Source: Candidatus Heimdallarchaeota archaeon
GTDB taxonomy: Archaea > Asgardarchaeota > Heimdallarchaeia > Heimdallarchaeales > Heimdallarchaeaceae
Reading direction: 5' to 3'
Assembly (NCBI GenBank): GCA_019057375.1
Contig: DXJF01000104.1
Coordinates: forward strand, 1 to 64,000
Length of the DNA: 64,000 bases
The notes under the pieces were generated by a model. That model saw only the letters and a program-made list of their open reading frames with translations, searched no databases and was not told the origin of the DNA. Numbering within the stretch: the first letter of the stretch is position 1; every line of letters begins with the position of its first letter. Of the stretch, positions 25,899 through 34,956 are shown in pieces. The position numbers and the translations under genes were made by a program.

Positions 25899-27188
25899 TC
25901 ATCCATAAATTGATGTATCTGCGAATGTTTCAGGATAGTCTTCGTCTTCGAAATCTTCTGGTTTCTGACTTGGTGAAGGTTTCTGATCTGGTAAAGATTT
26001 AGTCTTAGGATATCGACCATGTCTTTCACGATCTTGTTCTCTTTCTTGTTTGTACAAGTAATATCTTCTGATATCTTTCTTCATGAACATCTCAATACGT
26101 CTAATCATATTTCTTTCTTCGTGATCTATTAGAGAGATTGCGACACCAGCTCTTTCCATCCTTGAAGTTCTTCCTATTCTATGAATATAATTTTCGGGAT
26201 TTCCAATAGGTAGATCATAATTGAAGATATGAGAAACATGAGGTATGTCTAATCCTCTTGCTGCAACATCTGTCGCAATAAGACAACTGATTTTACCTTT
26301 TCTAAACTCTCGCATAGAAATTTCTCTTTGTCTTTGTGACATATCTCCTTGAAGTGAACCTATTCTCATATGGATTCTTTTATCATTACGCAGTTTCTGC
26401 TCTAGGTTTGTACCCCATCTTTTGGTATTAACAAAAACAATACTTGATTTTGGCTTTTCTCTTAATAGAATATTAACAAAGGAGTTGTATTTTTTCTTAG
26501 GATCCGGTACTTCATAGTAATATTGCTTGCAAGAACCTACAGTTAGATCATCTCTACTAACATCAATCTCAACAATGTTCTCTTCTAAACTATAATCAAG
26601 CATTATGTCTTTTACTTCTGGTAGCATAGTAGCTGAAAACAGAAGAAATCTAGGGTAGATGTCTTTCATAGCTTCAAATAAAATGTAATTAACATCAGGA
26701 AGGAAGCCCATATCGAGCATACGATCAGCCTCGTCAAGTACTACATATTTTACTTCTTTGAAAGAAATTGCTTTTCTGTTGAATAAATCTATCAGTCTTC
26801 CAGGTGTAGCTACAACAATTTGAGCTCCTGAGCGGATATTTTCTATTTGTCTATTTATGGATACTCCTCCATAAACCTCAACAGCTTTTAATCTTCTATG
26901 TCTATTCAGTTTGGATATTACTGTATAAACTTGTTTACATAATTCTCTAGTAGGAACTAGAATAACTGCTTGAATTTTTCTTAGTGTGGGGTCGAGTTCT
27001 TCGGTAATTGGTATAGCGAAAGCTAATGTCTTTCCTGTACCTGTTTTAGCTTGCGATAAAATATGTGTTTTTTCTCCCTTAAGAATCTCAGGGATAGCTT
27101 TTTCTTGAATTTCTGTTGGGGTATGAATTCCCATTTCTTGTAAAGCTTGTTTTATTTGGTCATTAATCTTGTAATCTTTAAATTTCAT
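25899..27188 (-). CDS. DEAD-box RNA helicase (paralog 2)
   Basis: AKTGTGKT, PTREL, DEAD, SAT, ARGLD, HRIGRTSR. Confidence 0.95.
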   Translation of the reverse strand: MKFKDYKINDQIKQALQEMGIHTPTEIQEKAIPEILKGEKTHILSQAKTGTGKTLAFAIPITEELDPTLRKIQAVILVPTRELCKQVYTVISKLNRHRRLKAVEVYGGVSINRQIENIRSGAQIVVATPGRLIDLFNRKAISFKEVKYVVLDEADRMLDMGFLPDVNYILFEAMKDIYPRFLLFSATMLPEVKDIMLDYSLEENIVEIDVSRDDLTVGSCKQYYYEVPDPKKKYNSFVNILLREKPKSSIVFVNTKRWGTNLEQKLRNDKRIHMRIGSLQGDMSQRQREISMREFRKGKISCLIATDVAARGLDIPHVSHIFNYDLPIGNPENYIHRIGRTSRMERAGVAISLIDHEERNMIRRIEMFMKKDIRRYYLYKQEREQDRERHGRYPKTKSLPDQKPSPSQKPEDFEDEDYPETFADTSIYG

Positions 27189-27301
27189 TAGTATCATTCG
27201 TGTATCTTTTTAATCAAACTAGGTATCATTGTGACGAATGTTTTCGCTTCAAATTTTTTCATAGTTTTAATTGCTGAAAAAGATAGGTGTTCTATTTTCT
27301 T

Positions 27302-27349
27302 ATCTTCCTCAACTCTAAGCTACTTAATTTTTCTAGCTTTAAAAGACTT
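27302..27349 (-). promoter_or_regulatory. Promoter and putative transcript 5' end of DEAD-box gene 2
   Basis: AAGTCTTTTAAAGC-N21-AGTTGAGGAAGAT, same as 7848-7895. Confidence 0.7.
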
Positions 27350-27440
27350 TGTTATTGCAACTTTAAGAGCTAAACCTTCTAATAATGAAATTTACCAGAA
27401 TGGAGAAATTTAGGAGAAAGAAAGAGGTCACTACATAATA

Positions 27441-27471
27441 CTTATAATTTGTACAGTATTCCAAGTACAAA
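27441..27471 (+). promoter_or_regulatory. TATA box (CTTATAAT) followed by palindrome TTTGTAC-N10-GTACAAA upstream of paralog 4
   Basis: Perfect 7-bp inverted repeat at 27448-27471. Confidence 0.55.
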
Positions 27472-27485
27472 AAGTTGAATGAAGA

Positions 27486-27848
27486 ATGCCAGATATACCA
27501 AATAAAGAAAAACAAGAGATCAGAATATTGGCAGAGGATTTCAGTTGTTTAATTGCAACCCTTTCATTCAAAAAAGGTTCTTATATCTTCTATGAAGTTT
27601 TCAAGTCTCTCTATAGTAGATCAGCTAGATGGAGATATTGTTTGATTTGTGGTAATATAGATTTACCTAAGGATTTTATCCATAAGGATCAAAACTACCC
27701 CCAAGTATCTTGTCACAAAATCCAGTCACTAATACCAACTTCTTGGATGAAACTAAGAGATCTCTTCATTAAAGGTAATTATAAGAAACTCCTTAAAGCA
27801 ATGGGGGTTCAAAATGTAGAAAAAAAGACAACCAGTGTCTCTAATTAA
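27486..27848 (+). CDS. CxxC-type putative zinc-finger protein, paralog 4 (divergent second ligand pair)
   Basis: MPDIP...ARWRYCLICG...SCHK...IPTSWMKLRDLF. Confidence 0.75.
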   Translation: MPDIPNKEKQEIRILAEDFSCLIATLSFKKGSYIFYEVFKSLYSRSARWRYCLICGNIDLPKDFIHKDQNYPQVSCHKIQSLIPTSWMKLRDLFIKGNYKKLLKAMGVQNVEKKTTSVSN

Positions 27849-27875
27849 ATAAAGTGTGAGAATATTCCTTTAGAT

Positions 27876-28352
27876 TTAGGATGTCTCCCCAATTTTTATT
27901 GCTTCAGGCAATTTGTTTTCTTCTGCAACTGCGAATATTTCTCGTATAATTGGTATCTGACCTGGTTTGTCTGTTACTCCAGCATTTTCTAGAGCTCGTA
28001 TATGCTTCTTTGACATAAAGAAGTCCCGCAGTTTATACCATGATGTAGTAATTAAAACAGGAAAACGATTCGCACCTAAAGTACATTCATGGATTCTCTC
28101 TTTTAATTCAGATTTCTTCTCTTCTGAATACTTATCACTACCAAGCTCTCCATCATCAATCATCAACTCGGTGGGTTCAATAATCCCACACTTAAGACAG
28201 AATTTCCACCTGGCAGATCTAATATACAGTGCTTCAAAAGTTTCTGAATAAACTAATAGCCCTTCATTGAAGGGAGATACCCATAATCCCATTGCATAGC
28301 GTCTTGCAATTGATTTTATAAATGATTTTTCAGCATTAGATATTTTTGGCAT
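27876..28352 (-). CDS. CxxC-HxC putative zinc-finger protein, paralog 5
   Basis: ARWKFCLKCG...HEC...FPVLITTSWYKLRDFF. Confidence 0.8.
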   Translation of the reverse strand: MPKISNAEKSFIKSIARRYAMGLWVSPFNEGLLVYSETFEALYIRSARWKFCLKCGIIEPTELMIDDGELGSDKYSEEKKSELKERIHECTLGANRFPVLITTSWYKLRDFFMSKKHIRALENAGVTDKPGQIPIIREIFAVAEENKLPEAIKIGETS

Positions 28353-28443
28353 ACTACACCCCTTGCCAATATGATTGAATCCATACCGACATATTAAGAT
28401 ATCTCTACAACTCTAAGCTGAAAAAAATTGAAATATATTACAA

Positions 28444-28827
28444 CTAGACTTGAAGCAAACTACCTATGAGGAACAAAATTGCTACAAGTGTTTTAATTAC
28501 GGGACACAACTTCATAGGAATTACTGGAACTCTTGCACCTGTAAAGGATGAAAGAATAGCCATTATTACAAGCATTGCAGAAGAAAACCAGAAAACAATC
28601 TGAGGGATAAGTGTAGTTATATTTCCGAAAATAGTTACAAAGACTACAAGTGTTCCAATAAAGATGAGAGTTATTCCTTCAGCTATCCATTCCATTTTAA
28701 TAATATGCTTATTATCTTTAGATATTTCACCAAATCCTTTAACTATTGATTTAGTTGGAAAGATGTGGGCGATACCCCAAACAATTATCAAACCTGATCC
28801 TATGTAGAGAAGTATGGAATTTATCAA
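28444..28827 (-). CDS. Hypothetical 4-TM membrane protein
   Basis: Four hydrophobic segments, WGIAHIFPT motif. Confidence 0.75.
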   Translation of the reverse strand: MINSILLYIGSGLIIVWGIAHIFPTKSIVKGFGEISKDNKHIIKMEWIAEGITLIFIGTLVVFVTIFGNITTLIPQIVFWFSSAMLVIMAILSSFTGARVPVIPMKLCPVIKTLVAILFLIGSLLQV

Positions 28828-28963
28828 GATTAATCACTTGAATTGGTAGTAGATTTACATTAATAAAAGATTAATGTCTTTTCCTTCTCTTTTTCTTAAG
28901 ACAGTATTAAAATTCAAAAAACATAAAAAAAAATGAAATAAGGACTAATATACAACATGATTC

Positions 28964-29113
28964 TTAAAATGACTGAGATACAGCAGATAAGGAGAGCAAT
29001 CCAATTACGATTAAGACACATATAGGGATAGCATAAGCTAGAAACAGGCCAACATAGTAAATTGCTTTTTCCAGTATAGCTTTTCTTCTTATCTGACTAA
29101 TATTTGAAATCAT
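28964..29113 (-). CDS. 49-aa single-TM microprotein, cassette A (MISNISQIRRKAILEKAIYYVGLFLAYAIPICVLIVIGLLSLSAVSQSF)
   Basis: GAGGTG SD before ATG; same length as and alignable with 30584-30733. Confidence 0.7.
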   Translation of the reverse strand: MISNISQIRRKAILEKAIYYVGLFLAYAIPICVLIVIGLLSLSAVSQSF

Positions 29114-29191
29114 TTTTATTTCACCTCTTTTGTAATCAGCTCCTTAATACTCCACCAGAGGAAGATGGTTATTTACTGATCTTGAATAGGT

Positions 29192-29305
29192 ATCAGGAGA
29201 GCCAGATGAAAACTTACAGCACACGAATATTCATCCAGCTCAGATCCTGATCCGTAGTAGACAAAGGGTCTGTTGTAGTGAGTGTTTCAGCAAGAAACAA
29301 TCAGC
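29192..29305 (-). ncRNA. Putative structured leader/ncRNA, cassette A: 23-nt conserved hairpin + ~30-nt linker + ~19-bp stem-loop
   Basis: GCTGATTGTTTCTTGCTGAAACA at 29283-29305 identical to 30875-30897; ATCAGGA/TCCTGAT, GAGC/GCTC, GATGAA/TTCATC stems at 29192-29251. Confidence 0.5.
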
Positions 29306-29396
29306 GTGTTAGAGATCAACCAGATTAAATGTTGATCAAGATATTATTGTAAGTGCAAGAAGAAGAAGAAAAGTGATTCATTCACTCCTCTAAATC

Positions 29397-29549
29397 TTAT
29401 ATATATCTTACTGCTACTAGAGCTCCTCCAAAAACTACACCAAGAGCGTATAGAAATACTGGTAGAGCGAATCTGAGAAATCTATATAGATATACTATTG
29501 GTCTTGAAATTTTGAGTTTATAAAACCACACAGGTCGTCTGTAATTCAT
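29397..29549 (-). CDS. 50-aa aromatic/basic membrane microprotein (MNYRRPVWFYKLKISRPIVYLYRFLRFALPVFLYALGVVFGGALVAVRYI)
   Basis: GGAGGTG SD before ATG; C-terminal TM helix. Confidence 0.65.
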   Translation of the reverse strand: MNYRRPVWFYKLKISRPIVYLYRFLRFALPVFLYALGVVFGGALVAVRYI

Positions 29550-29580
29550 TCCTTTTCACCTCCAAATCAGTTATAGAAAA

Positions 29581-29621
29581 AGGGAGAGCTTCAGCTTACC
29601 CTGGAAGAGGGTATTGCTGAA
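29581..29621 (-). promoter_or_regulatory. Switchable hairpin over the stop codon of the basic peptide, cassette A (attenuator-like)
   Basis: TTCAGC-AA-TACCCT-CTTCC-AGGGTA-A-GCTGAA; alternative AGGG(TA)AGC-TGAA-GCT(CT)CCCT followed by T-run. Confidence 0.5.
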
Positions 29622-29742
29622 AAGCTAAACCTAAACGAGATTTTGATCTTAGGGCGCGACGAGCTCTCTTGAACTGCTTTAACTCCTTTTGGAGTGCCTT
29701 AACCTTTTGGTCCAACAAGTTTGAAACTTCATCATACTTCAT
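29596..29742 (-). CDS. 48-aa Arg/Lys-rich coiled-coil microprotein, cassette A (MKYDEVSNLLDQKVKALQKELKQFKRARRALRSKSRLGLAFQQYPLPG)
   Basis: AAGGTGA SD; 24/48 identical to 31829-31975 without gaps. Confidence 0.8.
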   Translation of the reverse strand: MKYDEVSNLLDQKVKALQKELKQFKRARRALRSKSRLGLAFQQYPLPG

Positions 29743-29768
29743 TTTTTTCACCTTGTGATTTCTTTCAC

Positions 29769-29862
29769 ATGTAGGACTTGCTGCGACATCCTATATAAAG
29801 GAGTTTGAGTGGGAAATTGTTGTCACAAAGAGAAATGTGAATGTCGGACTTAATGCGACATC
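29769..29862 (-). promoter_or_regulatory. Cassette A promoter: TATA (CTTTATATAG, 29791-29800) with two copies of a 21-22 bp operator-like palindrome
   Basis: ATGTAGGACTTGCTGCGACATC (29769-29790) and ATGTCGGACTTAATGCGACATC (29841-29862). Confidence 0.65.
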
Positions 29863-30030
29863 ATAAACATATGTGCAAGGATGCACACACACGTAATTCA
29901 CAGATTTAAAGGGCTAAATAGTAGATATGAAGTATTTCAGCTTTGCGGCAAAAATTACCTATTGTGTTAAAAAGATGTAGTCTTTTGGACAACTATTTTG
30001 ATTAGCAGAACAAAAAAAGAGATCATAAAA

Positions 30031-30477
30031 CTACCTGATTCGATCAGTGGAATCAGCTTTAGATTTAGCCTTAGAGGTGGAAGAGGAGACAATCTCTGAA
30101 ACTTCAGGATAAGTAGTAACTGTAACTGCTTCAACATCCCTCGCGATGTCTGGTTCTACACCGATCTTCTGAAGTGCTTTGACATACTTATCTGTTAAGA
30201 AGAAATCTGCCATTTCAAGCCAACTAGTGGTTACTAAAACAGGAAATCTATTAAAATCTAATGCACATTTATGAGTATCTTCAGTTAAATCTTGTATTGT
30301 ATCAATAGTTCCACATTTCAAACATATTCTCAAACGAGAAGATTTTTTGTATAAATCATTCATTGCTTCTTGATACAAATGTAAGCCTTGATCAAGCGGA
30401 GCATCCCATAGATCAAGAGCAAAGCGTCTTGCTCGGGAGCGAATTACTTTCTTTTTTGCGTTAGACATATCAGCCAT
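30031..30477 (-). CDS. CxxC-HxC putative zinc-finger protein, paralog 6
   Basis: SRLRICLKCG...HKC...FPVLVTTSWLEMADFF. Confidence 0.8.
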   Translation of the reverse strand: MADMSNAKKKVIRSRARRFALDLWDAPLDQGLHLYQEAMNDLYKKSSRLRICLKCGTIDTIQDLTEDTHKCALDFNRFPVLVTTSWLEMADFFLTDKYVKALQKIGVEPDIARDVEAVTVTTYPEVSEIVSSSTSKAKSKADSTDRIR

Positions 30478-30489
30478 TGTGCATCCCTC

Positions 30490-30520
30490 ATGTATTATTA
30501 AGTCCTACATCATTATAAAG
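30490..30520 (-). promoter_or_regulatory. Paralog 6 promoter: TATA (CTTTATAATG) followed by the cassette A operator
   Basis: ATGTAGGACTTAATAATACAT on the minus strand, matching 29769 and 29841 sites. Confidence 0.65.
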
Positions 30521-30583
30521 TTTGGCCCTATGGCACAAATTTCCTAATCTTGGTTTATGTTTTAAATTAAAAAAAAAGAGAGT

Positions 30584-30733
30584 TTAAGATAAGTTTGCTA
30601 GAGATAGAAATGCTACTACAAACAAAGCAACTGAAAACACTATGAGTATTGTATACCCCAAGAGTGTTCCTGCGTTTGTTCTTGTTTTTTCTATCCACAT
30701 TTTTCTTTTAGTGTTATTCACGTTTTTGGCCAT
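30584..30733 (-). CDS. 49-aa single-TM microprotein, cassette B (MAKNVNNTKRKMWIEKTRTNAGTLLGYTILIVFSVALFVVAFLSLANLS)
   Basis: GAGGTGG SD; homolog of 28964-29113. Confidence 0.7.
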   Translation of the reverse strand: MAKNVNNTKRKMWIEKTRTNAGTLLGYTILIVFSVALFVVAFLSLANLS

Positions 30734-30779
30734 TTATTCCACCTCGGTTTTTTTATGCAGATTTCTCCTCATAGTTTTA

Positions 30780-30897
30780 GGATTAGAAGGACCAAACTTA
30801 CTGGCTAGCAAGGGGGATAGCTGTTCAGTCTGGTCTTCCCGATCCCATCCTGGTGATGAAATCTGACTAATGAATGTTTCAGCAAGAAACAATCAGC
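30780..30897 (-). ncRNA. Putative structured leader/ncRNA, cassette B
   Basis: Same 23-nt element (30875-30897), 29-nt linker, GGAT/ATCC + GGAA/TTCT + GACCAGACT/AGTTTGGTC stem at 30780-30845. Confidence 0.5.
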
Positions 30898-30975
30898 TTG
30901 ATTTTTTTTAATTTAATTTTTGTAAAAAAATTCGAAAGAAGAAAATGGTTTTGAACATTTTCTTCCCCGTTACAA

Positions 30976-31392
30976 TTATCTAACTACATATATGTCAGCA
31001 TTTGTTTTAGCAACTCTAACTAAAACATATTCTACACCATCAGTTATTGATATTCTAGTTAATTCCTCAGCCACATCATCAACTGCATCTAATCTAACTA
31101 AATCAACAACAGCTGTGTTACCTAAAGCTGCTCTAACCACATATACATCTGCATCATCAACCTCATTAGTTCTGAATACTTCAATTGCTGCATTATCAAC
31201 TGTAGCAATTACCACATAATCAGAGTAATTTTCAGTTGCAGCTACAACATTATTGTAAGTTAAATTTATACTTGCTAGAGATACGATCAAAGCTACGATC
31301 ATTGGTAGAACTACTAATAATATTCTAGTTAGGTTAATTTCAGGACTAGTAAAATTTAGTCGAGCTAATAATTCTTTAGCAGATCTTTTCAT
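30976..31392 (-). CDS. 138-aa single-TM protein with six 12-13-residue beta-type repeats
   Basis: AGGAGGTGA SD; TM ~24-42; repeats at residues 62-138 each end in Arg. Confidence 0.8.
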   Translation of the reverse strand: MKRSAKELLARLNFTSPEINLTRILLVVLPMIVALIVSLASINLTYNNVVAATENYSDYVVIATVDNAAIEVFRTNEVDDADVYVVRAALGNTAVVDLVRLDAVDDVAEELTRISITDGVEYVLVRVAKTNADIYVVR

Positions 31393-31459
31393 TCTTTTTC
31401 ACCTCCTAGAATTTTTCTTTTTCTCCTGAATCTTTTTCAAGTAATTGCAAAAAATTAAT

Positions 31460-31476
31460 GAGCCCTTCATGGGCTC
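31460..31476 (-). terminator. Hairpin GAGCCC-ATGAA-GGGCTC followed by a T-rich run
   Basis: Perfect 6-bp GC-rich stem, then ATTAATTTTTT on the minus strand. Confidence 0.35.
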
Positions 31477-31530
31477 GAATTTGATCGTTCAGAGAGAGAG
31501 TTGTTTAAACAGTGTATCCACCTTCACTAA

Positions 31531-31791
31531 TTAATAGTAAAGCGACCCAAACAGGAGTAATTTTTGAGCAAGTGCTTTGTCCTTAGCCTTTCTCACTTTG
31601 TTCTCTATGCTTTCCTTGGAAATCTCTTTATCAGGTCGGGATTTTTTGTTATCGCGATCAGATAACCCTTCCACAAGTTGCTTGATGAACGAATAATAAA
31701 GCTCCTCATCAATGAATTCAAAATCATACAAAACTTTCATATTGTCAATTACTATTTGGCGCACTGTTTCTACTTGAACTTTGGATGCCAT
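31531..31791 (-). CDS. 86-aa hypothetical protein, cassette B
   Basis: GAGGTGA SD; follows the basic peptide in operon order. Confidence 0.7.
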   Translation of the reverse strand: MASKVQVETVRQIVIDNMKVLYDFEFIDEELYYSFIKQLVEGLSDRDNKKSRPDKEISKESIENKVRKAKDKALAQKLLLFGSLYY

Positions 31792-31814
31792 TCATTTCAC
31801 CTCTATTTGAAAAT

Positions 31815-31854
31815 GGTAAGACTCAAGCTTACCCGTAAATCAGGTATTGCCTGA
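31815..31854 (-). promoter_or_regulatory. Switchable hairpin over the stop codon of the basic peptide, cassette B
   Basis: TCAGGC-AA-TACCTG-ATTTA-CGGGTA-A-GCTTGA (G-U pairs); alternative GGTAAG-N7-CTTACC followed by ATTTT. Confidence 0.5.
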
Positions 31855-31975
31855 TTGGAAATCTAGAACGAGCTTTTGCTCTTCTAGTGCGACGAGCTCT
31901 TTTGAGCTTATTCAACTCCTTGCGGAGTGCCTTAATCTTTCGATCCAACATTAAACTTACTTCTTGTCCATACAT
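31829..31975 (-). CDS. 48-aa Arg/Lys-rich coiled-coil microprotein, cassette B (MYGQEVSLMLDRKIKALRKELNKLKRARRTRRAKARSRFPIRQYLIYG)
   Basis: GAGGTG SD; homolog of 29596-29742. Confidence 0.8.
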   Translation of the reverse strand: MYGQEVSLMLDRKIKALRKELNKLKRARRTRRAKARSRFPIRQYLIYG

Positions 31976-31986
31976 TTCTTTACACC

Positions 31987-32175
31987 TCAAATGTTTGCAA
32001 ATCTCCTTAGGTTCAGGTTAGAGTAGAAGCTAATAGTTGCAGTCAAGTATTGCTCATAGATATCCAATTTCTTGTCTGAATATCTGTTAGATAGAGTTTT
32101 CATGAGTTTATTGAGATCCTCGTAAAGTCTTCGAACCTCGGGATCCAGCAGTTTTTTTATTTCGTTTGTATTCAT
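31987..32175 (-). CDS. 62-aa helical hypothetical protein, first gene of cassette B
   Basis: GAGG SD 8 nt before ATG; stop overlaps the SD of the next ORF. Confidence 0.65.
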   Translation of the reverse strand: MNTNEIKKLLDPEVRRLYEDLNKLMKTLSNRYSDKKLDIYEQYLTATISFYSNLNLRRFANI

Positions 32176-32201
32176 TTTTCATGCCTCAGTATTTTTGTCA
32201 T

Positions 32202-32463
32202 TATTACTGCATTATGCAGCAACTTATTTAAGTGTCGTTATGCAGTAATATATTGCCGCATTGTACAGCAATAAAATAATATTGCTAAGAAACGACAAAA
32301 TAACTTTATGGGGGATTTTAATGTTTAAACACCATTCTATACCCTATAATGTATGTCATAAATAGAGGTAAATATTTCCGTTTAAGTTGTTTTTTCTGCA
32401 GTAATAAAATAACTTTAGGAAATTTTTACCTTGAGATATACATATATATACATTACTGCATAA
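32202..32463. promoter_or_regulatory. Divergent promoter region with repeated TATTRCTGCA-NNN-TGCAGYAATA sites and half-sites
   Basis: Sites at 32202-32224 and 32251-32273; half-sites 32241-32250, 32397-32406, 32451-32460. Confidence 0.6.
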
Positions 32464-32496
32464 ATGTAACATAGAAAAACATTAAGAGGTAAAATC

Positions 32497-32922
32497 TTGC
32501 CTGTAATTAAAGATGCTGAAAAAACACAAATCAAATCCAGAGCCCGTAGATATGCTCAAGATCTAGCTGATGCTCCCTTAAGTTCTGGTTTAGAATTATA
32601 TAGTGAAACTATCTCAAAGCTCCATGATCGTTCTTCCCGATTGCGAATTTGTCTAAAGTGTGGAACTATTGATAAAAAAGAGAGTCTTACTAATAGTAAT
32701 CATCATTGTGCATCTGGCATTGATAAACTCCCTGTTATCATTCTTACAAACTGGGTCATTTTGAAAAATTTCTTTCTCACTGATGAATACACTAAAGCGT
32801 TGCAAAAGCTTGGGGTTGAACCCATCACTGCTAAAACTGTTCCAAGTACAACTTCTTCCAAAGAAGAGAGTGCAGACACCAAAAAACAAATGGAAGAAAC
32901 ATTAGCTGATACAGCCAAGTAG
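32497..32922 (+). CDS. CxxC-HxC putative zinc-finger protein, paralog 7
   Basis: TTG start after GAGGT SD; SRLRICLKCG...HHC...LPVIILTNWVILKNFF; closest to paralog 6. Confidence 0.8.
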   Translation: MPVIKDAEKTQIKSRARRYAQDLADAPLSSGLELYSETISKLHDRSSRLRICLKCGTIDKKESLTNSNHHCASGIDKLPVIILTNWVILKNFFLTDEYTKALQKLGVEPITAKTVPSTTSSKEESADTKKQMEETLADTAK

Positions 32923-32940
32923 ATAAAAGAATTTTCTATT

Positions 32941-33183
32941 TTATAATTTCAGTTTTTCCTTCAGTTCATCATTTGAAGGTTCAACAAGAATCGAGCCATC
33001 TTCAAAAACAATTGTTAGGACTCTGGCTCTGCCATTGTTTAATTCCAATGTTTTTCTTTTTCCGTCTGTATCTGAATCTATGTCAATCTATTTTTAGTGA
33101 ATATTATTCTCATCTAGAAACTTCTTAGATCTTTTGCAATCCCCACACCAATCAGTTCCGTATATTATTTCTATTCTAGTCAT
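32941..33183 (-). pseudogene. Mycoredoxin/NrdH-like glutaredoxin with two in-frame stops
   Basis: YGTDWCGDCKRSKKFL...IH*K*IDID...TIVFEDGSILVEPSNDELKEKL; TAA 33094-33096, TAG 33088-33090. Confidence 0.8.
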
Positions 33184-33288
33184 CTTGAAAAGTCTTCTAA
33201 AAAACACGCATTTAAGGATATTGCATTTATATTAAAAAAATGTACAATTAATTACTTTTTTATACACTTATCGTCCACGCACGATTAA

Positions 33289-34956
33289 GTGAAAAAATGC
33301 ATTAGGAGAAGCGCGTTATTGTTTAACAATGTTATTGTGGCTCAACAAATTGAAGATATACCATTTGAAAATATTCGCTCAGTTAAAGGTGAGATGATTA
33401 TTTCAGAAGACTTTCCAAGTTATCTAATCGATGAATCCAAGATAAGCGGAGGGCATGCTGAATACTTATTTTTCCCAAATACTGAAGAGGAAATAATCTC
33501 GCTCATTAAAAAGATGAAGGAGGAGGAGCTTATGATCACAATATCAGCTGCACGAACAGGAATTGTCGGTAGCGCAGTTCCTTTTGGTGGAGCTGTTCTT
33601 TCTTTAGAGAGGATGGATGGGGTCATTGGCCTAGGTTATGATGAAGAGGTTAAGAAATGGTTTCTAAGAGTGCAACCAGCGATTTCTTTGGCTGAAATAA
33701 ATCACATAGTAAAATTGAAAAAACTTGAACCTGATCAAAGTATTCCTCAAGAAGGGAATTGGGTTGAGAAGTTTGAAAAAGAACATACACATTATTATCC
33801 TGTAGATCCTACTGAAATGACTGCATCAATTGGTGGTACTATTGGAGCAAATGCTAGTGGCGCACGCTCTTTCAAATATGGTTCCACAAGAGAGTGGATA
33901 AGAAGAATTCGGGTAATTATAGGTGCAGGAGAAGTATTGGTCATCCCTAGAGGAAAATACAAGGCAAAAGATGGAAAATTCATTGTAAAAACCTCTAAAG
34001 CAGACTATGAATTAAAATTACCAACTTATAAAATGCCTGGAGCAAAGAATGCTGCAGGACTATATACCAAAAAAGATATGGATTTGATTGATCTTTTTAT
34101 TGGTTCAGAAGGAGTATTCGGTGTGATATCTGAAGCTGATGTTTGGCTGAAAGATCATACACCCCAAATGTCCAATGTAGCGTTTTTCAAAAATGAAAAC
34201 GATGCTTTAGACTTCGTAACTAAACTTAGAGCAAGTGAAAAAATAAAACCAGAATTTATTGAATTTTTTGAAGACCATGCTCTCACCTTATTAAGAAACA
34301 AACAAAAAGAAGACCCTAAGTTTGTGGATATGCCAATAATAGCTGAAGATATAACAACAGCAATTTCTTTTGATCTACCTTACTCTGAGGAAACCCTAAA
34401 TGAATATTTTAGTGAAATTTCCATCATGTTAGAAGAATGTAATTCCTCTTTGAGCAACACCTGGAGTGCATACGAAGACAGGGAAGTAGCACGGATTAAA
34501 CACTTTAGACATGCAGTTCCTGAAATTGTAAACAATATCATTGCTGAGCGTAAAAAAGAATATCCTGAGATTCATAAGCTAGGAACAGACATGTCCGTTG
34601 AAGACAAGTACTTGAAAGAGATAATGAAGTTCTATTATGATACTCTCAAAGAAGTAGGATTAGAGTATGTAATGTGGGGTCATATTGGTGATAATCATGT
34701 TCATGTTAATATTCTCCCACGAGATATTAATGATTTAGAATTAGGAAAGCAAATCTACAAAAAATTTGCAAAGAAAGCTGTTCAGTTTGGGGGATCAGTT
34801 TCTGCAGAGCATGGAATTGGAAAAATCAAACACGAATATCTTCAAATCATGTATGGGGAAGAAGGAGTTCTTCAAATGAGAGAAATTAAGTTCTCACTAG
34901 ATCCAGAATGTGTTTTTAATTGTGGTAATATTTTTGGTAGAGGTGCTAAAAGTTGA
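33289..34956 (+). CDS. FAD-binding oxidoreductase, D-lactate dehydrogenase/GlcD family (start uncertain)
   Basis: ARTGIVGSAVP, ASIGGTIGANASG, IGSEGVFG, GHIGDNHVHVN, SAEHGIGKIK motifs. Confidence 0.85.
   Translation: MKKCIRRSALLFNNVIVAQQIEDIPFENIRSVKGEMIISEDFPSYLIDESKISGGHAEYLFFPNTEEEIISLIKKMKEEELMITISAARTGIVGSAVPFGGAVLSLERMDGVIGLGYDEEVKKWFLRVQPAISLAEINHIVKLKKLEPDQSIPQEGNWVEKFEKEHTHYYPVDPTEMTASIGGTIGANASGARSFKYGSTREWIRRIRVIIGAGEVLVIPRGKYKAKDGKFIVKTSKADYELKLPTYKMPGAKNAAGLYTKKDMDLIDLFIGSEGVFGVISEADVWLKDHTPQMSNVAFFKNENDALDFVTKLRASEKIKPEFIEFFEDHALTLLRNKQKEDPKFVDMPIIAEDITTAISFDLPYSEETLNEYFSEISIMLEECNSSLSNTWSAYEDREVARIKHFRHAVPEIVNNIIAERKKEYPEIHKLGTDMSVEDKYLKEIMKFYYDTLKEVGLEYVMWGHIGDNHVHVNILPRDINDLELGKQIYKKFAKKAVQFGGSVSAEHGIGKIKHEYLQIMYGEEGVLQMREIKFSLDPECVFNCGNIFGRGAKS

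What the first reader, a model, noticed from the sequence alone, without database searches (positions are those of the whole stretch)
29192..30897. Identical 23-nt element plus position-matched long stem-loop: candidate structured RNA leader
Seen: GCTGATTGTTTCTTGCTGAAACA is identical at 29283-29305 and 30875-30897 although flanks are unalignable, and it folds as TGTTTC-TTGCT-GAAACA. After a 31-nt (A) or 29-nt (B) variable linker, each copy has a long irregular hairpin of different sequence (60 nt, ~19 bp at 29192-29251; 66 nt, ~17 bp at 30780-30845). A TTG in the element opens a uORF (LFLAET...; 28 aa in A, 52 aa in B, ending TAA-ATG flush with the TM peptide). In A, a GATCAAC-N10-GTTGATC palindrome (29314-29337) brackets a TATA-like TTTAAT ~27 nt upstream of that TTG. 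Inference: riboswitch-like leader, processed small RNA with a variable ~30-nt segment, or uORF control.
Basis: partly seen in the sequence, partly recalled or inferred. Interest (0 to 1): 0.78.

Follow-up and report, generated by a model that had tools for sequence, protein, structure and literature searches.

The report
Structured mRNA leader in Heimdall archaea
Two small membrane-peptide genes of an Asgard (Heimdall-group) archaeon are each preceded by a folded, 140-200-nt RNA leader that opens with the same invariant hairpin. This RNA motif matches no Rfam family, is probably regulatory, occurs in only one genus, and its partner and mechanism are still unknown.

Summary
The 23-mer is exact at 29283-29305 and 30875-30897 on the minus strand, and these are the only two copies in the 3.47-Mb genome. 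Both long hairpins fold where stated (z -4.8 and -3.2).

The organism is a Heimdallarchaeota MAG. Comparison across genomes turns the pair into a family of leaders with three subtypes. A and C are orthologous; B is a paralogue. The family occurs in 12 of 25 genomes of one genus and nowhere else that I searched. It nearly always lies between a terminator-like hairpin and the Shine-Dalgarno site of a 49-aa single-pass membrane peptide.

The 23-mer is hairpin P1, with an invariant UUGCU loop. Its stem is kept through one A-U to U-A swap, G-U wobbles and a bulge, which fits RNA better than a DNA operator. P3 is kept as a long hairpin across sequences that no longer align.

- The "variable linker" is itself paired.
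- The uORF is not conserved (9-55 aa).
- The TATA-like loop of the copy-A palindrome is not conserved.
- No Rfam family matches.

One lineage deleted leader B cleanly. One leader A carries a 355-nt mobile insertion, and earlier notes of this scan already described that case on another genome.

Best reading: a cis-acting structured leader whose invariant hairpin is read by a shared trans factor. The mechanism is inferred, not shown.

The parts
29367..29391 (-). Copy A: terminator-like hairpin plus pyrimidine/T-rich tail, just after the stop of the upstream 50-aa membrane peptide gene (29397-29549)
   Evidence: Consensus scan; sequence; conserved in orthologues
29342..29353 (-). Copy A: conserved T/A-rich box (TTTAYRATTAT family), candidate TATA box, 37-48 nt upstream of P1
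   Evidence: Conserved in all A- and C-type loci. Its role as a TATA box is inferred from spacing only
29314..29337 (-). Copy A only: palindrome P0 (GATCAAC-N10-GTTGATC) between the T/A box and P1. Either an operator or an extra RNA hairpin
   Evidence: z -3.4. In orthologues one pair changes on both sides, one becomes T.G and one is broken: ambiguous
29279..29305 (-). Copy A: hairpin P1 (contains the 23-mer at 29283-29305), 9 pairs, 1x1 internal loop, invariant UUGCU loop
   Evidence: pair counts
29257..29273 (-).
   Evidence: Weak in this genome (4-5 pairs), 6 pairs in most orthologues
29188..29254 (-). Copy A: long hairpin P3 (base GGAUCAGG/CCUGAU, apical GUGUGCUG motif)
29134..29181 (-). 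Copy A: hairpin P4 with inner helix P4b and a CU-rich (anti-Shine-Dalgarno-like) loop UUCCUCU
   Evidence: In the G011 orthologue the inner P4b pairs are CUGC/GCAG instead of CAUC/GGUG
29122..29127 (-). Copy A: Shine-Dalgarno GAGGTG, 8 nt before the ATG
28964..29113 (-). Copy A: 49-aa peptide gene pepA (basic N-terminus, one hydrophobic span)
30935..30968 (-). Copy B: terminator-like hairpin (13 pairs) followed by a T7 run, after the upstream 138-aa gene (30976-31392)
   Evidence: sequence
30916..30930 (-). Copy B: T/A-rich box TTTTTTTACAAAAAT, candidate TATA box centred about 26 nt upstream of P1
   Evidence: It is retained in the natural leader-deletion variants. Its role is inferred
30871..30897 (-). 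Copy B: hairpin P1 (contains the 23-mer at 30875-30897)
30758..30865 (-). Copy B: long hairpin P3 (core 30778-30847) enclosed by a closing helix (CAGAUUUC.../...GAAAUCUG)
   Evidence: In the G024 orthologue the closing helix is CAGAUAUC/GAUAUCUG
30740..30745 (-). Copy B: Shine-Dalgarno GAGGTG, 6 nt before the ATG
30584..30733 (-). Copy B: 49-aa peptide gene pepB (37% identical to pepA)

Best explanation
Each copy is the structured 5' leader of an mRNA for a 49-aa single-pass membrane peptide. The leader is about 165-195 nt here and 140-198 nt across the family. It sits in a variable small-protein island of a Heimdall-group (Asgard) archaeon.

The leader begins, at or within about 20 nt of the inferred transcription start, with hairpin P1, which contains the 23-mer. 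Then come a short helix, a long irregular hairpin P3, and in the A type a fourth hairpin with a CU-rich loop. It ends at a strong Shine-Dalgarno site.

I propose that P1 is a sequence-specific recognition hairpin for one trans-acting factor shared by both mRNAs. That factor is most likely a protein encoded in the same cassette. Its binding, together with the leader fold, would set translation and/or stability of the peptide mRNA.

Shown: the element, its fold, its conservation, its fixed position before the peptide gene, and its dispensability in nature. Inferred: that it is transcribed from the T/A box just upstream, that a factor binds P1, and that the output is translational or stability control.
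For: 1. Exact duplication and uniqueness.

2. Family and distribution. The same element occurs in 12 of 25 genomes of one genus, 1-2 copies each. It is absent from the other 4 genera of the family and from the rest of the class, where the only hits lie inside long ORFs. Metagenome and species-genome scans add only Heimdallarchaeota contigs as true members.

3. Fixed position. In 17 of 18 loci the element sits between a terminator-like hairpin and GAGGTG-N6-8-ATG of a pepA or pepB homologue. The locus is syntenic between a DEAD-box helicase and an FAD oxidase gene.

4. RNA structure. All 16 full leaders fold with z from -2.2 to -5.4. The sense strand is more stable than the antisense in 11 of 12 A/B leaders. 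A covariance model built from A-type P1-P3 alone finds C-type (36-46 bits) and B-type (26-32 bits) leaders over its full length. On that alignment 94.4% of cells are standard pairs, 16 pairs change on both sides, 0 of 500 shuffles reach this, and slid controls give about 40% paired.

5. P1 behaves as RNA. A5-U25 becomes U5-A24 in all five C-type sequences. U9-A21 becomes U9.G21 in two A-type sequences. The C-type stem carries a bulged A. The non-palindromic loop UUGCU and the 5' GC are invariant except for one loop G-to-U change in the G011 B copy.

6. A shared factor is suggested because P1 is 23/23 identical between paralogous leaders whose peptides are only 37% identical and whose remaining leader sequence aligns poorly. 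Also, leader B is found only in genomes, or on contigs, of the lineage that carries cassette A.

7. It is a regulatory add-on. G014 and G018 lack the whole B leader through a clean deletion that keeps the T/A box, the Shine-Dalgarno site and an intact pepB.
Against: There are no transcript data, so the start site, the strand actually expressed and any processing are inferred.

Within one subtype the sequences are too similar to test covariation. The unfitted A-type alignment is not significant (2 double changes, reached by 190 of 500 shuffles). The strong statistics therefore rest on an alignment fitted to the model.

In the three C-type leaders the antisense strand folds slightly better.

The predicted partner of the Shine-Dalgarno site differs from leader to leader, so no consistent sequestering helix was found.

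In the A type the T/A box lies 37-48 nt upstream and a palindrome intervenes. P1 may therefore be about 20 nt inside the RNA, or the leader may be internal to a polycistronic transcript.

No binding factor is identified. The neighbouring zinc-finger protein has no recognisable fold relative.
Confidence: 0.55

Rival explanations
1. The 23-mer is a DNA operator. A dimeric repressor, for example one of the neighbouring C2HC zinc-finger paralogues, binds the TGTTTC-N5-GAAACA dyad at the transcription start of the internal promoters of pepA and pepB. The downstream hairpins are an unrelated leader fold.
For: The element has dyad symmetry and lies at +1 to +23 of the inferred start in B and C types. 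In archaea this is the usual place for repressors (established knowledge; spacing). Several zinc-finger paralogues flank the cassettes. Copy A has a second palindrome nearby.
Against: The non-palindromic centre (TTGCT) and the 5' GC are as invariant as the arms. Stem changes include G.U pairs, which are mismatches in DNA symmetry. The C type has a 1-nt bulge that breaks half-site spacing. One arm position changes together with its partner. In the A type the element would lie about 20-40 nt downstream of the inferred start.
Confidence: 0.12
2. A type I toxin-antitoxin-like module. The 49-aa hydrophobic peptide is a membrane toxin whose mRNA is kept silent by its long folded leader. P1 is the target of a small antisense or trans RNA.
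For: The module combines a small single-pass peptide, a long structured 5' UTR and a strong Shine-Dalgarno site. It lies in a hypervariable island that other congeners fill with different cassettes. Natural loss, insertion and an orphan copy suggest non-essential, fast-evolving modules.
Against: No second copy or complement of the element exists elsewhere in the genome, even with 3 mismatches allowed. The mok-like uORF is not conserved. The leader-less pepB variants keep an intact gene behind a T/A box, which is hard to reconcile with an unchecked toxin. No PADLOC or PHROG family matches the neighbours. The peptides sit in syntenic operon-like cassettes with other small proteins.
Confidence: 0.12
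3. A riboswitch-like leader. P1-P3 form an aptamer for a small molecule or ion, and ligand binding switches access to the Shine-Dalgarno site.
For: The leader is a multi-helix fold ahead of a ribosome-binding site. CUGAU and AUCAG motifs recur and could pair in alternative ways. CU-rich anti-Shine-Dalgarno-like stretches are present in every subtype.
Against: No Rfam match, even at E up to 1. The A/C and B leaders share only P1 and the base of P3, so there is no common junction or pocket. The proposed alternative pairings are not conserved between subtypes. The distribution is one genus with one or two copies per genome. The regulated gene gives no hint of a ligand.
Confidence: 0.08
4. P1-P3 is a free-standing small RNA, or an RNA released from the 5' UTR, that acts in trans. 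The peptide gene merely lies downstream.
For: An orphan copy in G022 (contig C11) has P1-P3 followed by a T-run and a convergent gene, with no peptide gene.
Against: In 17 of 18 loci there is no T-run between P3 and the Shine-Dalgarno site, and the peptide gene follows directly. The orphan copy has a damaged P1 (3 changes, top pair lost), which looks like decay.
Confidence: 0.08

Closest known systems
Protein-binding 5' hairpins shared by several mRNAs: iron-responsive element with IRP, phage lambda boxB with the N arginine-rich motif, archaeal and bacterial ribosomal-protein or L7Ae autoregulatory leaders
   Same: A short hairpin with an invariant loop and a small internal irregularity sits close to the 5' end and is repeated on paralogous mRNAs whose other sequence has diverged. 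Small arginine-rich peptides and zinc-finger proteins are encoded in the same cassettes.
   Different: No sequence or structural match to any of these. No k-turn by inspection. No binding protein is known. The resemblance is functional analogy only.
Type I toxin mRNAs with long folded leaders (hok/mok/sok, tisB, zorO)
   Same: A hydrophobic peptide of about 50 aa behind a folded 5' UTR of 150-200 nt. In copy B of this genome a uORF ends exactly at the peptide start codon.
   Different: The uORF is not conserved. No antisense or complementary RNA gene was found. Leader-less natural variants exist. The host is an archaeon, and toxicity is untested.
Riboswitches and other Rfam cis-regulatory leaders
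   Same: A multi-helix leader directly upstream of a ribosome-binding site, with helices kept by compensatory change.
   Different: No Rfam 15 family matches. No conserved junction is shared by all subtypes. The range is extremely narrow.
Palindromic archaeal operators overlapping the transcription start
   Same: Dyad symmetry and a position just downstream of a T/A-rich box.
   Different: The non-symmetric loop is invariant, and the stem shows G.U pairs, a bulge and a compensatory swap. The element continues into a covarying RNA fold.

Membership tests
Any Rfam 15 family (riboswitches, leaders, sRNAs) | Match to the family covariance model | tested here: not met
   No hit at gathering score in the window. 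No hit at E up to 1 in three representative loci, one per subtype.
Riboswitch (generic) | Conserved ligand-binding core shared by all members | tested here: not met
   A/C and B leaders share only P1 and the base of P3. Their interiors do not align.
Riboswitch (generic) | Ligand-dependent conformational change | not testable with these tools
   Needs in-line probing or SHAPE with ligands.
Type I toxin-antitoxin (hok/sok-like) | Small hydrophobic peptide with a long structured 5' UTR | tested here: met
   49-aa peptides with one hydrophobic span of about 25 residues. Leaders of 140-198 nt with z from -2.2 to -5.4.
Type I toxin-antitoxin (hok/sok-like) | Antisense or complementary antitoxin RNA | tested here: inconclusive
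   No other copy or complement of the element in the genome at up to 3 mismatches. An overlapping cis-antisense transcript cannot be excluded without RNA data.
Type I toxin-antitoxin (hok/sok-like) | Conserved coupled uORF (mok-like) | tested here: not met
   uORF length is 9-55 aa, stops are not conserved, and indels shift the frame.
Type I toxin-antitoxin (hok/sok-like) | Toxicity of the peptide | not testable with these tools
   Needs expression assays.
CRISPR repeat / crRNA-like solo repeat | Similarity to a resident CRISPR repeat, or an array of repeats | tested here: not met
   The two arrays found in the genome (contigs C103 and C17) have unrelated repeats. The element occurs only twice, 1.6 kb apart.
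Palindromic DNA operator | Dyad symmetry with conservation concentrated in the two half-sites and fixed spacing | tested here: not met
   The loop and 5' GC are as conserved as the arms. There are G.U-type changes, and a 1-nt bulge in the C type.
Palindromic DNA operator | Position overlapping TATA box or transcription start | tested here: inconclusive
   About +1 to +23 of the inferred start in B and C types, but about +20 to +40 in the A type. The start site has not been mapped.
Protein-binding 5' hairpin regulon (IRE-like, boxB-like) | The same hairpin with an invariant loop on several mRNAs | tested here: met
   P1 is on pepA and pepB leaders in four genomes. 17 of its first 20 positions are invariant across 17 distinct sequences.
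Protein-binding 5' hairpin regulon (IRE-like, boxB-like) | A cognate RNA-binding protein | not testable with these tools
   The candidates are cassette-encoded arginine-rich peptides and C2HC zinc-finger proteins. The zinc-finger model (pLDDT 75) has no PDB relative.

The most novel reading that the evidence does not exclude
P1 is the RNA address tag of a small post-transcriptional regulon in an Asgard archaeon. A cassette-encoded arginine-rich microprotein or C2HC zinc-finger protein would bind the invariant hairpin on both peptide mRNAs, in the manner of IRE/IRP or boxB/N, and gate production of membrane microproteins in a hypervariable island. Alternatively, the modules are the first type I toxin-antitoxin-like systems described in Asgard archaea.
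Probability: 0.2. Interest if true: 0.72.

Novelty: new member of a known kind. Interest (0 to 1): 0.5.

Why it matters
Few cis-regulatory RNA leaders are known in archaea. I know of none described for Asgard archaea, the closest prokaryotic relatives of eukaryotes. One full-text search returned nothing relevant in its 15 listed papers, none of which mentions Asgard archaea.

This leader offers a compact system that could be tested directly:
- an invariant 27-nt hairpin on two mRNAs;
- natural variants that have lost the leader, carry an insertion in it, or stand alone without a peptide gene;
- a short list of candidate binding proteins encoded next door.

If a factor does bind P1, it would show how these organisms control microprotein synthesis after transcription. 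The narrow range (one genus, one or two copies per genome) limits how general the result would be.

Tried and rejected
- **uORF control.** Rejected, because frame length and stop position are not conserved.
- **Guide-like variable linker.** Rejected, because the linker is paired.
- **TATA box in the palindrome loop of copy A.** Rejected, because it is not conserved.
- **CRISPR-repeat-like solo repeat.** Rejected, because the resident repeats are unrelated.
- **C/D-box or k-turn reading of P3.** Rejected by inspection: the candidate positions form Watson-Crick pairs, and the GA needed on the non-bulged strand is missing.
- **Long-range pairing of P1 with the coding region or 3' end.** The best duplexes fall at different places in different orthologues.
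- **A consistent helix that sequesters the Shine-Dalgarno site.** The predicted partners differ.
- **More family members.** A pattern with 2-3 mismatches over 83 genomes of the class, a covariance model over 31 family genomes, and scans of metagenome, virus and species-genome collections found nothing outside one genus. Bacterial and out-of-genus hits are chance matches, and those I inspected lie in coding regions.
- **Function of the neighbours.** Pfam, NCBIfam, PHROGs, PADLOC, a PDB profile search, an AlphaFold model with Foldseek, and the ESM Atlas gave no family for the peptides, the zinc-finger paralogues or the other small proteins.
- **Literature.** One full-text search found nothing relevant to structured RNAs of Asgard archaea.
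Full report
**1. The observation**

The 23-mer is present exactly twice, on the minus strand at 29283-29305 (copy A) and 30875-30897 (copy B). No match was expected by chance, even with three mismatches allowed. These are the only copies in the whole 3.47-Mb, 159-contig assembly. Identity continues to 28 of 30 nt, and the rest of the two regions aligns poorly.

The element folds best as a 27-nt hairpin, which I call P1. It has nine pairs, a 1x1 internal loop and the loop UUGCU (-7.1 kcal/mol, z -3.0).

| Hairpin | Coordinates | Energy | z |
|---|---|---|---|
| A | 29192-29251 | -24.0 kcal/mol | -4.8 |
| B | 30780-30845 | -23.6 kcal/mol | -3.2 |

The uORFs (28 and 52 aa), the TAA-ATG junction in B and the copy-A palindrome at 29314-29337 are also as described. 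Each copy is followed by GAGGTG, 6-8 nt, ATG and a 49-aa peptide with a basic N-terminus and one hydrophobic span.

**2. Organism and setting**

- The genome encodes TATA-binding proteins, so it is archaeal.
- Its GC content is 33%.
- Close homologues of a neighbouring protein, and all archaeal contigs that carry the element, are labelled Candidatus Heimdallarchaeota, including AB_125.

The two copies lie in two tandem small-protein cassettes on the minus strand:
- Cassette A: basic 51-aa peptide, 50-aa membrane peptide, leader A, pepA.
- Cassette B: 62-aa protein, basic 53-aa peptide, 86-aa protein, 138-aa protein, leader B, pepB.

Each cassette is flanked by C2HC zinc-finger paralogues. The whole block sits between a DEAD-box helicase gene and an FAD oxidase gene.

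Other species of the genus fill the same interval with different zinc-finger and small-protein cassettes and lack pepA, the 50-aa peptide and the leader. The block is therefore a variable island.

**3. A family with three subtypes**

I searched the family's 31 genomes with a pattern and with a profile of the peptides. I searched the 83 genomes of the class with a looser pattern. I also scanned metagenome, virus and species-genome collections. True members occur only in one genus, in 12 of 25 genomes, with one or two copies each. Out-of-genus hits with two mismatches lie inside long ORFs. The bacterial exact matches lack any leader context, and there are no viral hits.

- **A type** (7 genomes plus 2 metagenome contigs): follows the 50-aa peptide gene.
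- **C type** (G015, G022 twice, G029, G030): occupies the same syntenic place in more distant species, so it is the orthologue of A.
- **B type** (G000, G007, G011, G024): precedes pepB.

A covariance model built only from A-type P1-P3 recovers C-type leaders at 36-46 bits and B-type leaders at 26-32 bits over its full length. It finds nothing further in the family's genomes.

**4. Evidence that it is a folded RNA**

All 16 complete leaders fold more stably than dinucleotide shuffles, with z from -2.2 to -5.4 and a mean of -3.6. The sense strand is the more stable one in 11 of 12 A/B leaders, although not in the three C-type leaders.

On the model-fitted alignment of 17 distinct sequences:
- 94.4% of cells form standard pairs;
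- 16 of 38 pairs show changes on both sides;
- none of 500 shuffles reaches any of the five measures;
- sliding the partners by 1-3 columns drops pairing to about 40%.

The caveat is real. That alignment is fitted to the structure. The unfitted alignment of the eight A-type leaders is too conserved to be informative (two double changes, reached by 190 of 500 shuffles).

Changes that can be checked by eye without the model:

| Helix | Usual form | Variant | Where |
|---|---|---|---|
| P1 | A5-U25 | U5-A24 | all five C-type sequences |
| P1 | U.C internal loop | U.G pair | C type |
| P1 | U-A pair | bulged A | C type |
| P1 | U9-A21 | U9.G21 | two A-type sequences |
| P4b | CAUC/GGUG | CUGC/GCAG | G011 |
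| B closing helix | CAGAUUUC/GAAAUCUG | CAGAUAUC/GAUAUCUG | G024 |
| P2 | GCAGAC/GUCUGC | GACAAA/UUUGUC, CAGCA/UGCUG, GCAGA/UCUGC | various |

Indels of 1 nt among orthologues show that the leader does not code for protein.

**5.

- The uORF opened by the TTG inside P1 runs 9, 14, 21, 28, 35, 52 or 55 codons and stops at unrelated places. It has no ribosome-binding site of its own. It is not a conserved feature.
- The "variable linker" is hairpin P2 in A and C types, and one strand of the closing helix in B. It is not a free guide-like segment.
- The TTTAAT in the loop of the copy-A palindrome is not conserved.

A T/A-rich box of the form TTTAYRATTAT is conserved. Its 5' end lies 26-31 nt upstream of P1 in C-type loci. 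The equivalent box in copy B is TTTTTTTACAAAAAT, centred about 26 nt upstream, although two of the four B-type loci space or place it differently. In the A type the box lies 37-49 nt upstream, because the palindrome is inserted between box and P1.

With the usual archaeal spacing, transcription would start at about the first G of P1 in B and C types, and about 20 nt upstream of P1 in the A type. This is inference only.

Both leaders are preceded by a terminator-like hairpin with a T-rich tail (29367-29391 and 30935-30968). This fits a separate transcription unit. It also allows read-through from the upstream genes.

**6. Natural variants**

- G014 and G018 lack the entire B leader. The sequence runs from the T/A box straight into AAAACCGAGGTGG-ATG, and pepB is intact. 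More distant species keep the leader, so this is a loss. It shows that the leader is dispensable for keeping the gene.
- In G014 the A leader carries a 355-nt insertion between P3 and P4. The same element is present in several copies in the window's own genome, one of them 98.6% identical over its full length. Earlier notes of this scan, made on another genome, describe this insertion as a gene-less TnpB-type guide-RNA mini-transposon. They describe the flanking sequence as a conserved four-hairpin host element. I confirmed only the multi-copy nature of the insertion.
- G022 has a second copy of basic peptide, 50-aa peptide and leader that lacks the peptide gene and ends in a T-run. Its P1 is damaged.
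- In G030 the peptide start codon appears to be deleted.

**7. Mechanism**

P1 is 23/23 identical between paralogous leaders whose peptides share 37% identity. Across 17 distinct sequences, 17 of its first 20 positions never vary, and these include the unpaired 5' GC and the loop. Constraint of that kind points to sequence-specific recognition by a macromolecule rather than to a merely stabilising stem.

Three features argue for RNA-level rather than DNA-level reading: the G.U changes, the bulge, and the invariance of the non-symmetric loop.

Leader B occurs only in the lineage that also has cassette A. This fits a factor encoded in cassette A to which pepB was later connected.

I therefore favour a shared trans factor, probably a protein, that binds P1 and sets translation or stability. 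Candidates are the arginine-rich 51- and 53-aa peptides and the C2HC zinc-finger proteins. The zinc-finger model has pLDDT 75 and no PDB relative.

A second motif, GUGUGCUGC or a one-base variant, is kept in P3 of A and C types. B has CCUUGCUAGC at the P3 apex, which shares UGCU with the P1 loop. This may be a second contact, but I could not test it.

CU-rich anti-Shine-Dalgarno-like stretches exist in every subtype. However, predicted partners of the ribosome-binding site are inconsistent, and candidate alternative pairings are not conserved. I therefore do not claim a specific switch.

**8. Comparison with known systems and verdict**

No Rfam family matches. The element works most like protein-binding 5' hairpins that several mRNAs share (IRE, boxB, ribosomal-protein leaders), but it is not a member of any of them. 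It resembles type I toxin mRNAs in outline, yet it fails the conserved-uORF test and no partner RNA is visible. It is not related to the genome's CRISPR repeats.

I rate it a new RNA motif of a known kind, namely a structured cis-regulatory leader. It is real and well delimited but narrow in range, and its mechanism is unproven. Interest 0.5.

Noticed in passing
L005:1041-1395 (G014 contig C41); copies in the window's own genome, e.g. G000 contig C65:8488-8842: A 355-nt, 45% GC insertion splits the A-type leader of G014 between P3 and P4. It is multi-copy in the window's own genome: one copy 98.6% identical over its full length, two at about 85-88%, and many copies of the first ~82 nt. Earlier scan notes call it a gene-less TnpB guide-RNA mini-transposon.
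   Followed up: partly
window 27486-27848 (+), 27876-28352 (-), 30031-30477 (-), 32497-32922 (+): A family of ~140-160-aa proteins with a conserved CxxC...HxC (C2HC) site and a helical C-terminal part. Homologues were found in metagenomes and in Heimdallarchaeota-labelled MAGs. There is no Pfam family. The AlphaFold model (pLDDT 75) has no PDB fold match. Several paralogues flank each small-protein cassette.
   Followed up: partly
window 25899-34956, compared with L091-L094: The interval between the DEAD-box helicase and the FAD oxidase is a hypervariable island in this genus. Different species carry different numbers and kinds of zinc-finger genes and small-protein cassettes there.
   Followed up: partly
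window 29596-29751 (-) and 31829-31990 (-): Two ~50-aa peptides with a heptad-like stretch followed by an arginine-rich run (KRARR...). They open both cassettes and also occur in congeners that lack the leader. They could be nucleic-acid-binding microproteins.
   Followed up: no
L029 and L030 (G018 contig C652, G014 contig C41), upstream of pepB: Clean natural deletion of the whole B leader. The T/A-rich box ends 23 nt before the ATG, which would give a leaderless or nearly leaderless pepB mRNA.
   Followed up: partly
L003 / L068 (G007-like), 30-55 nt upstream of P1 of the B leader: An extra palindrome, TCTGAAA-GA-TTTCAGA, lies between the T/A box and P1. Its position is analogous to the copy-A palindrome, but its sequence is different.
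   Followed up: no
G000 contigs C103:874-1198 and C17:20288-20489: Two short CRISPR-like arrays whose repeats are unrelated to the 23-mer.
   Followed up: no
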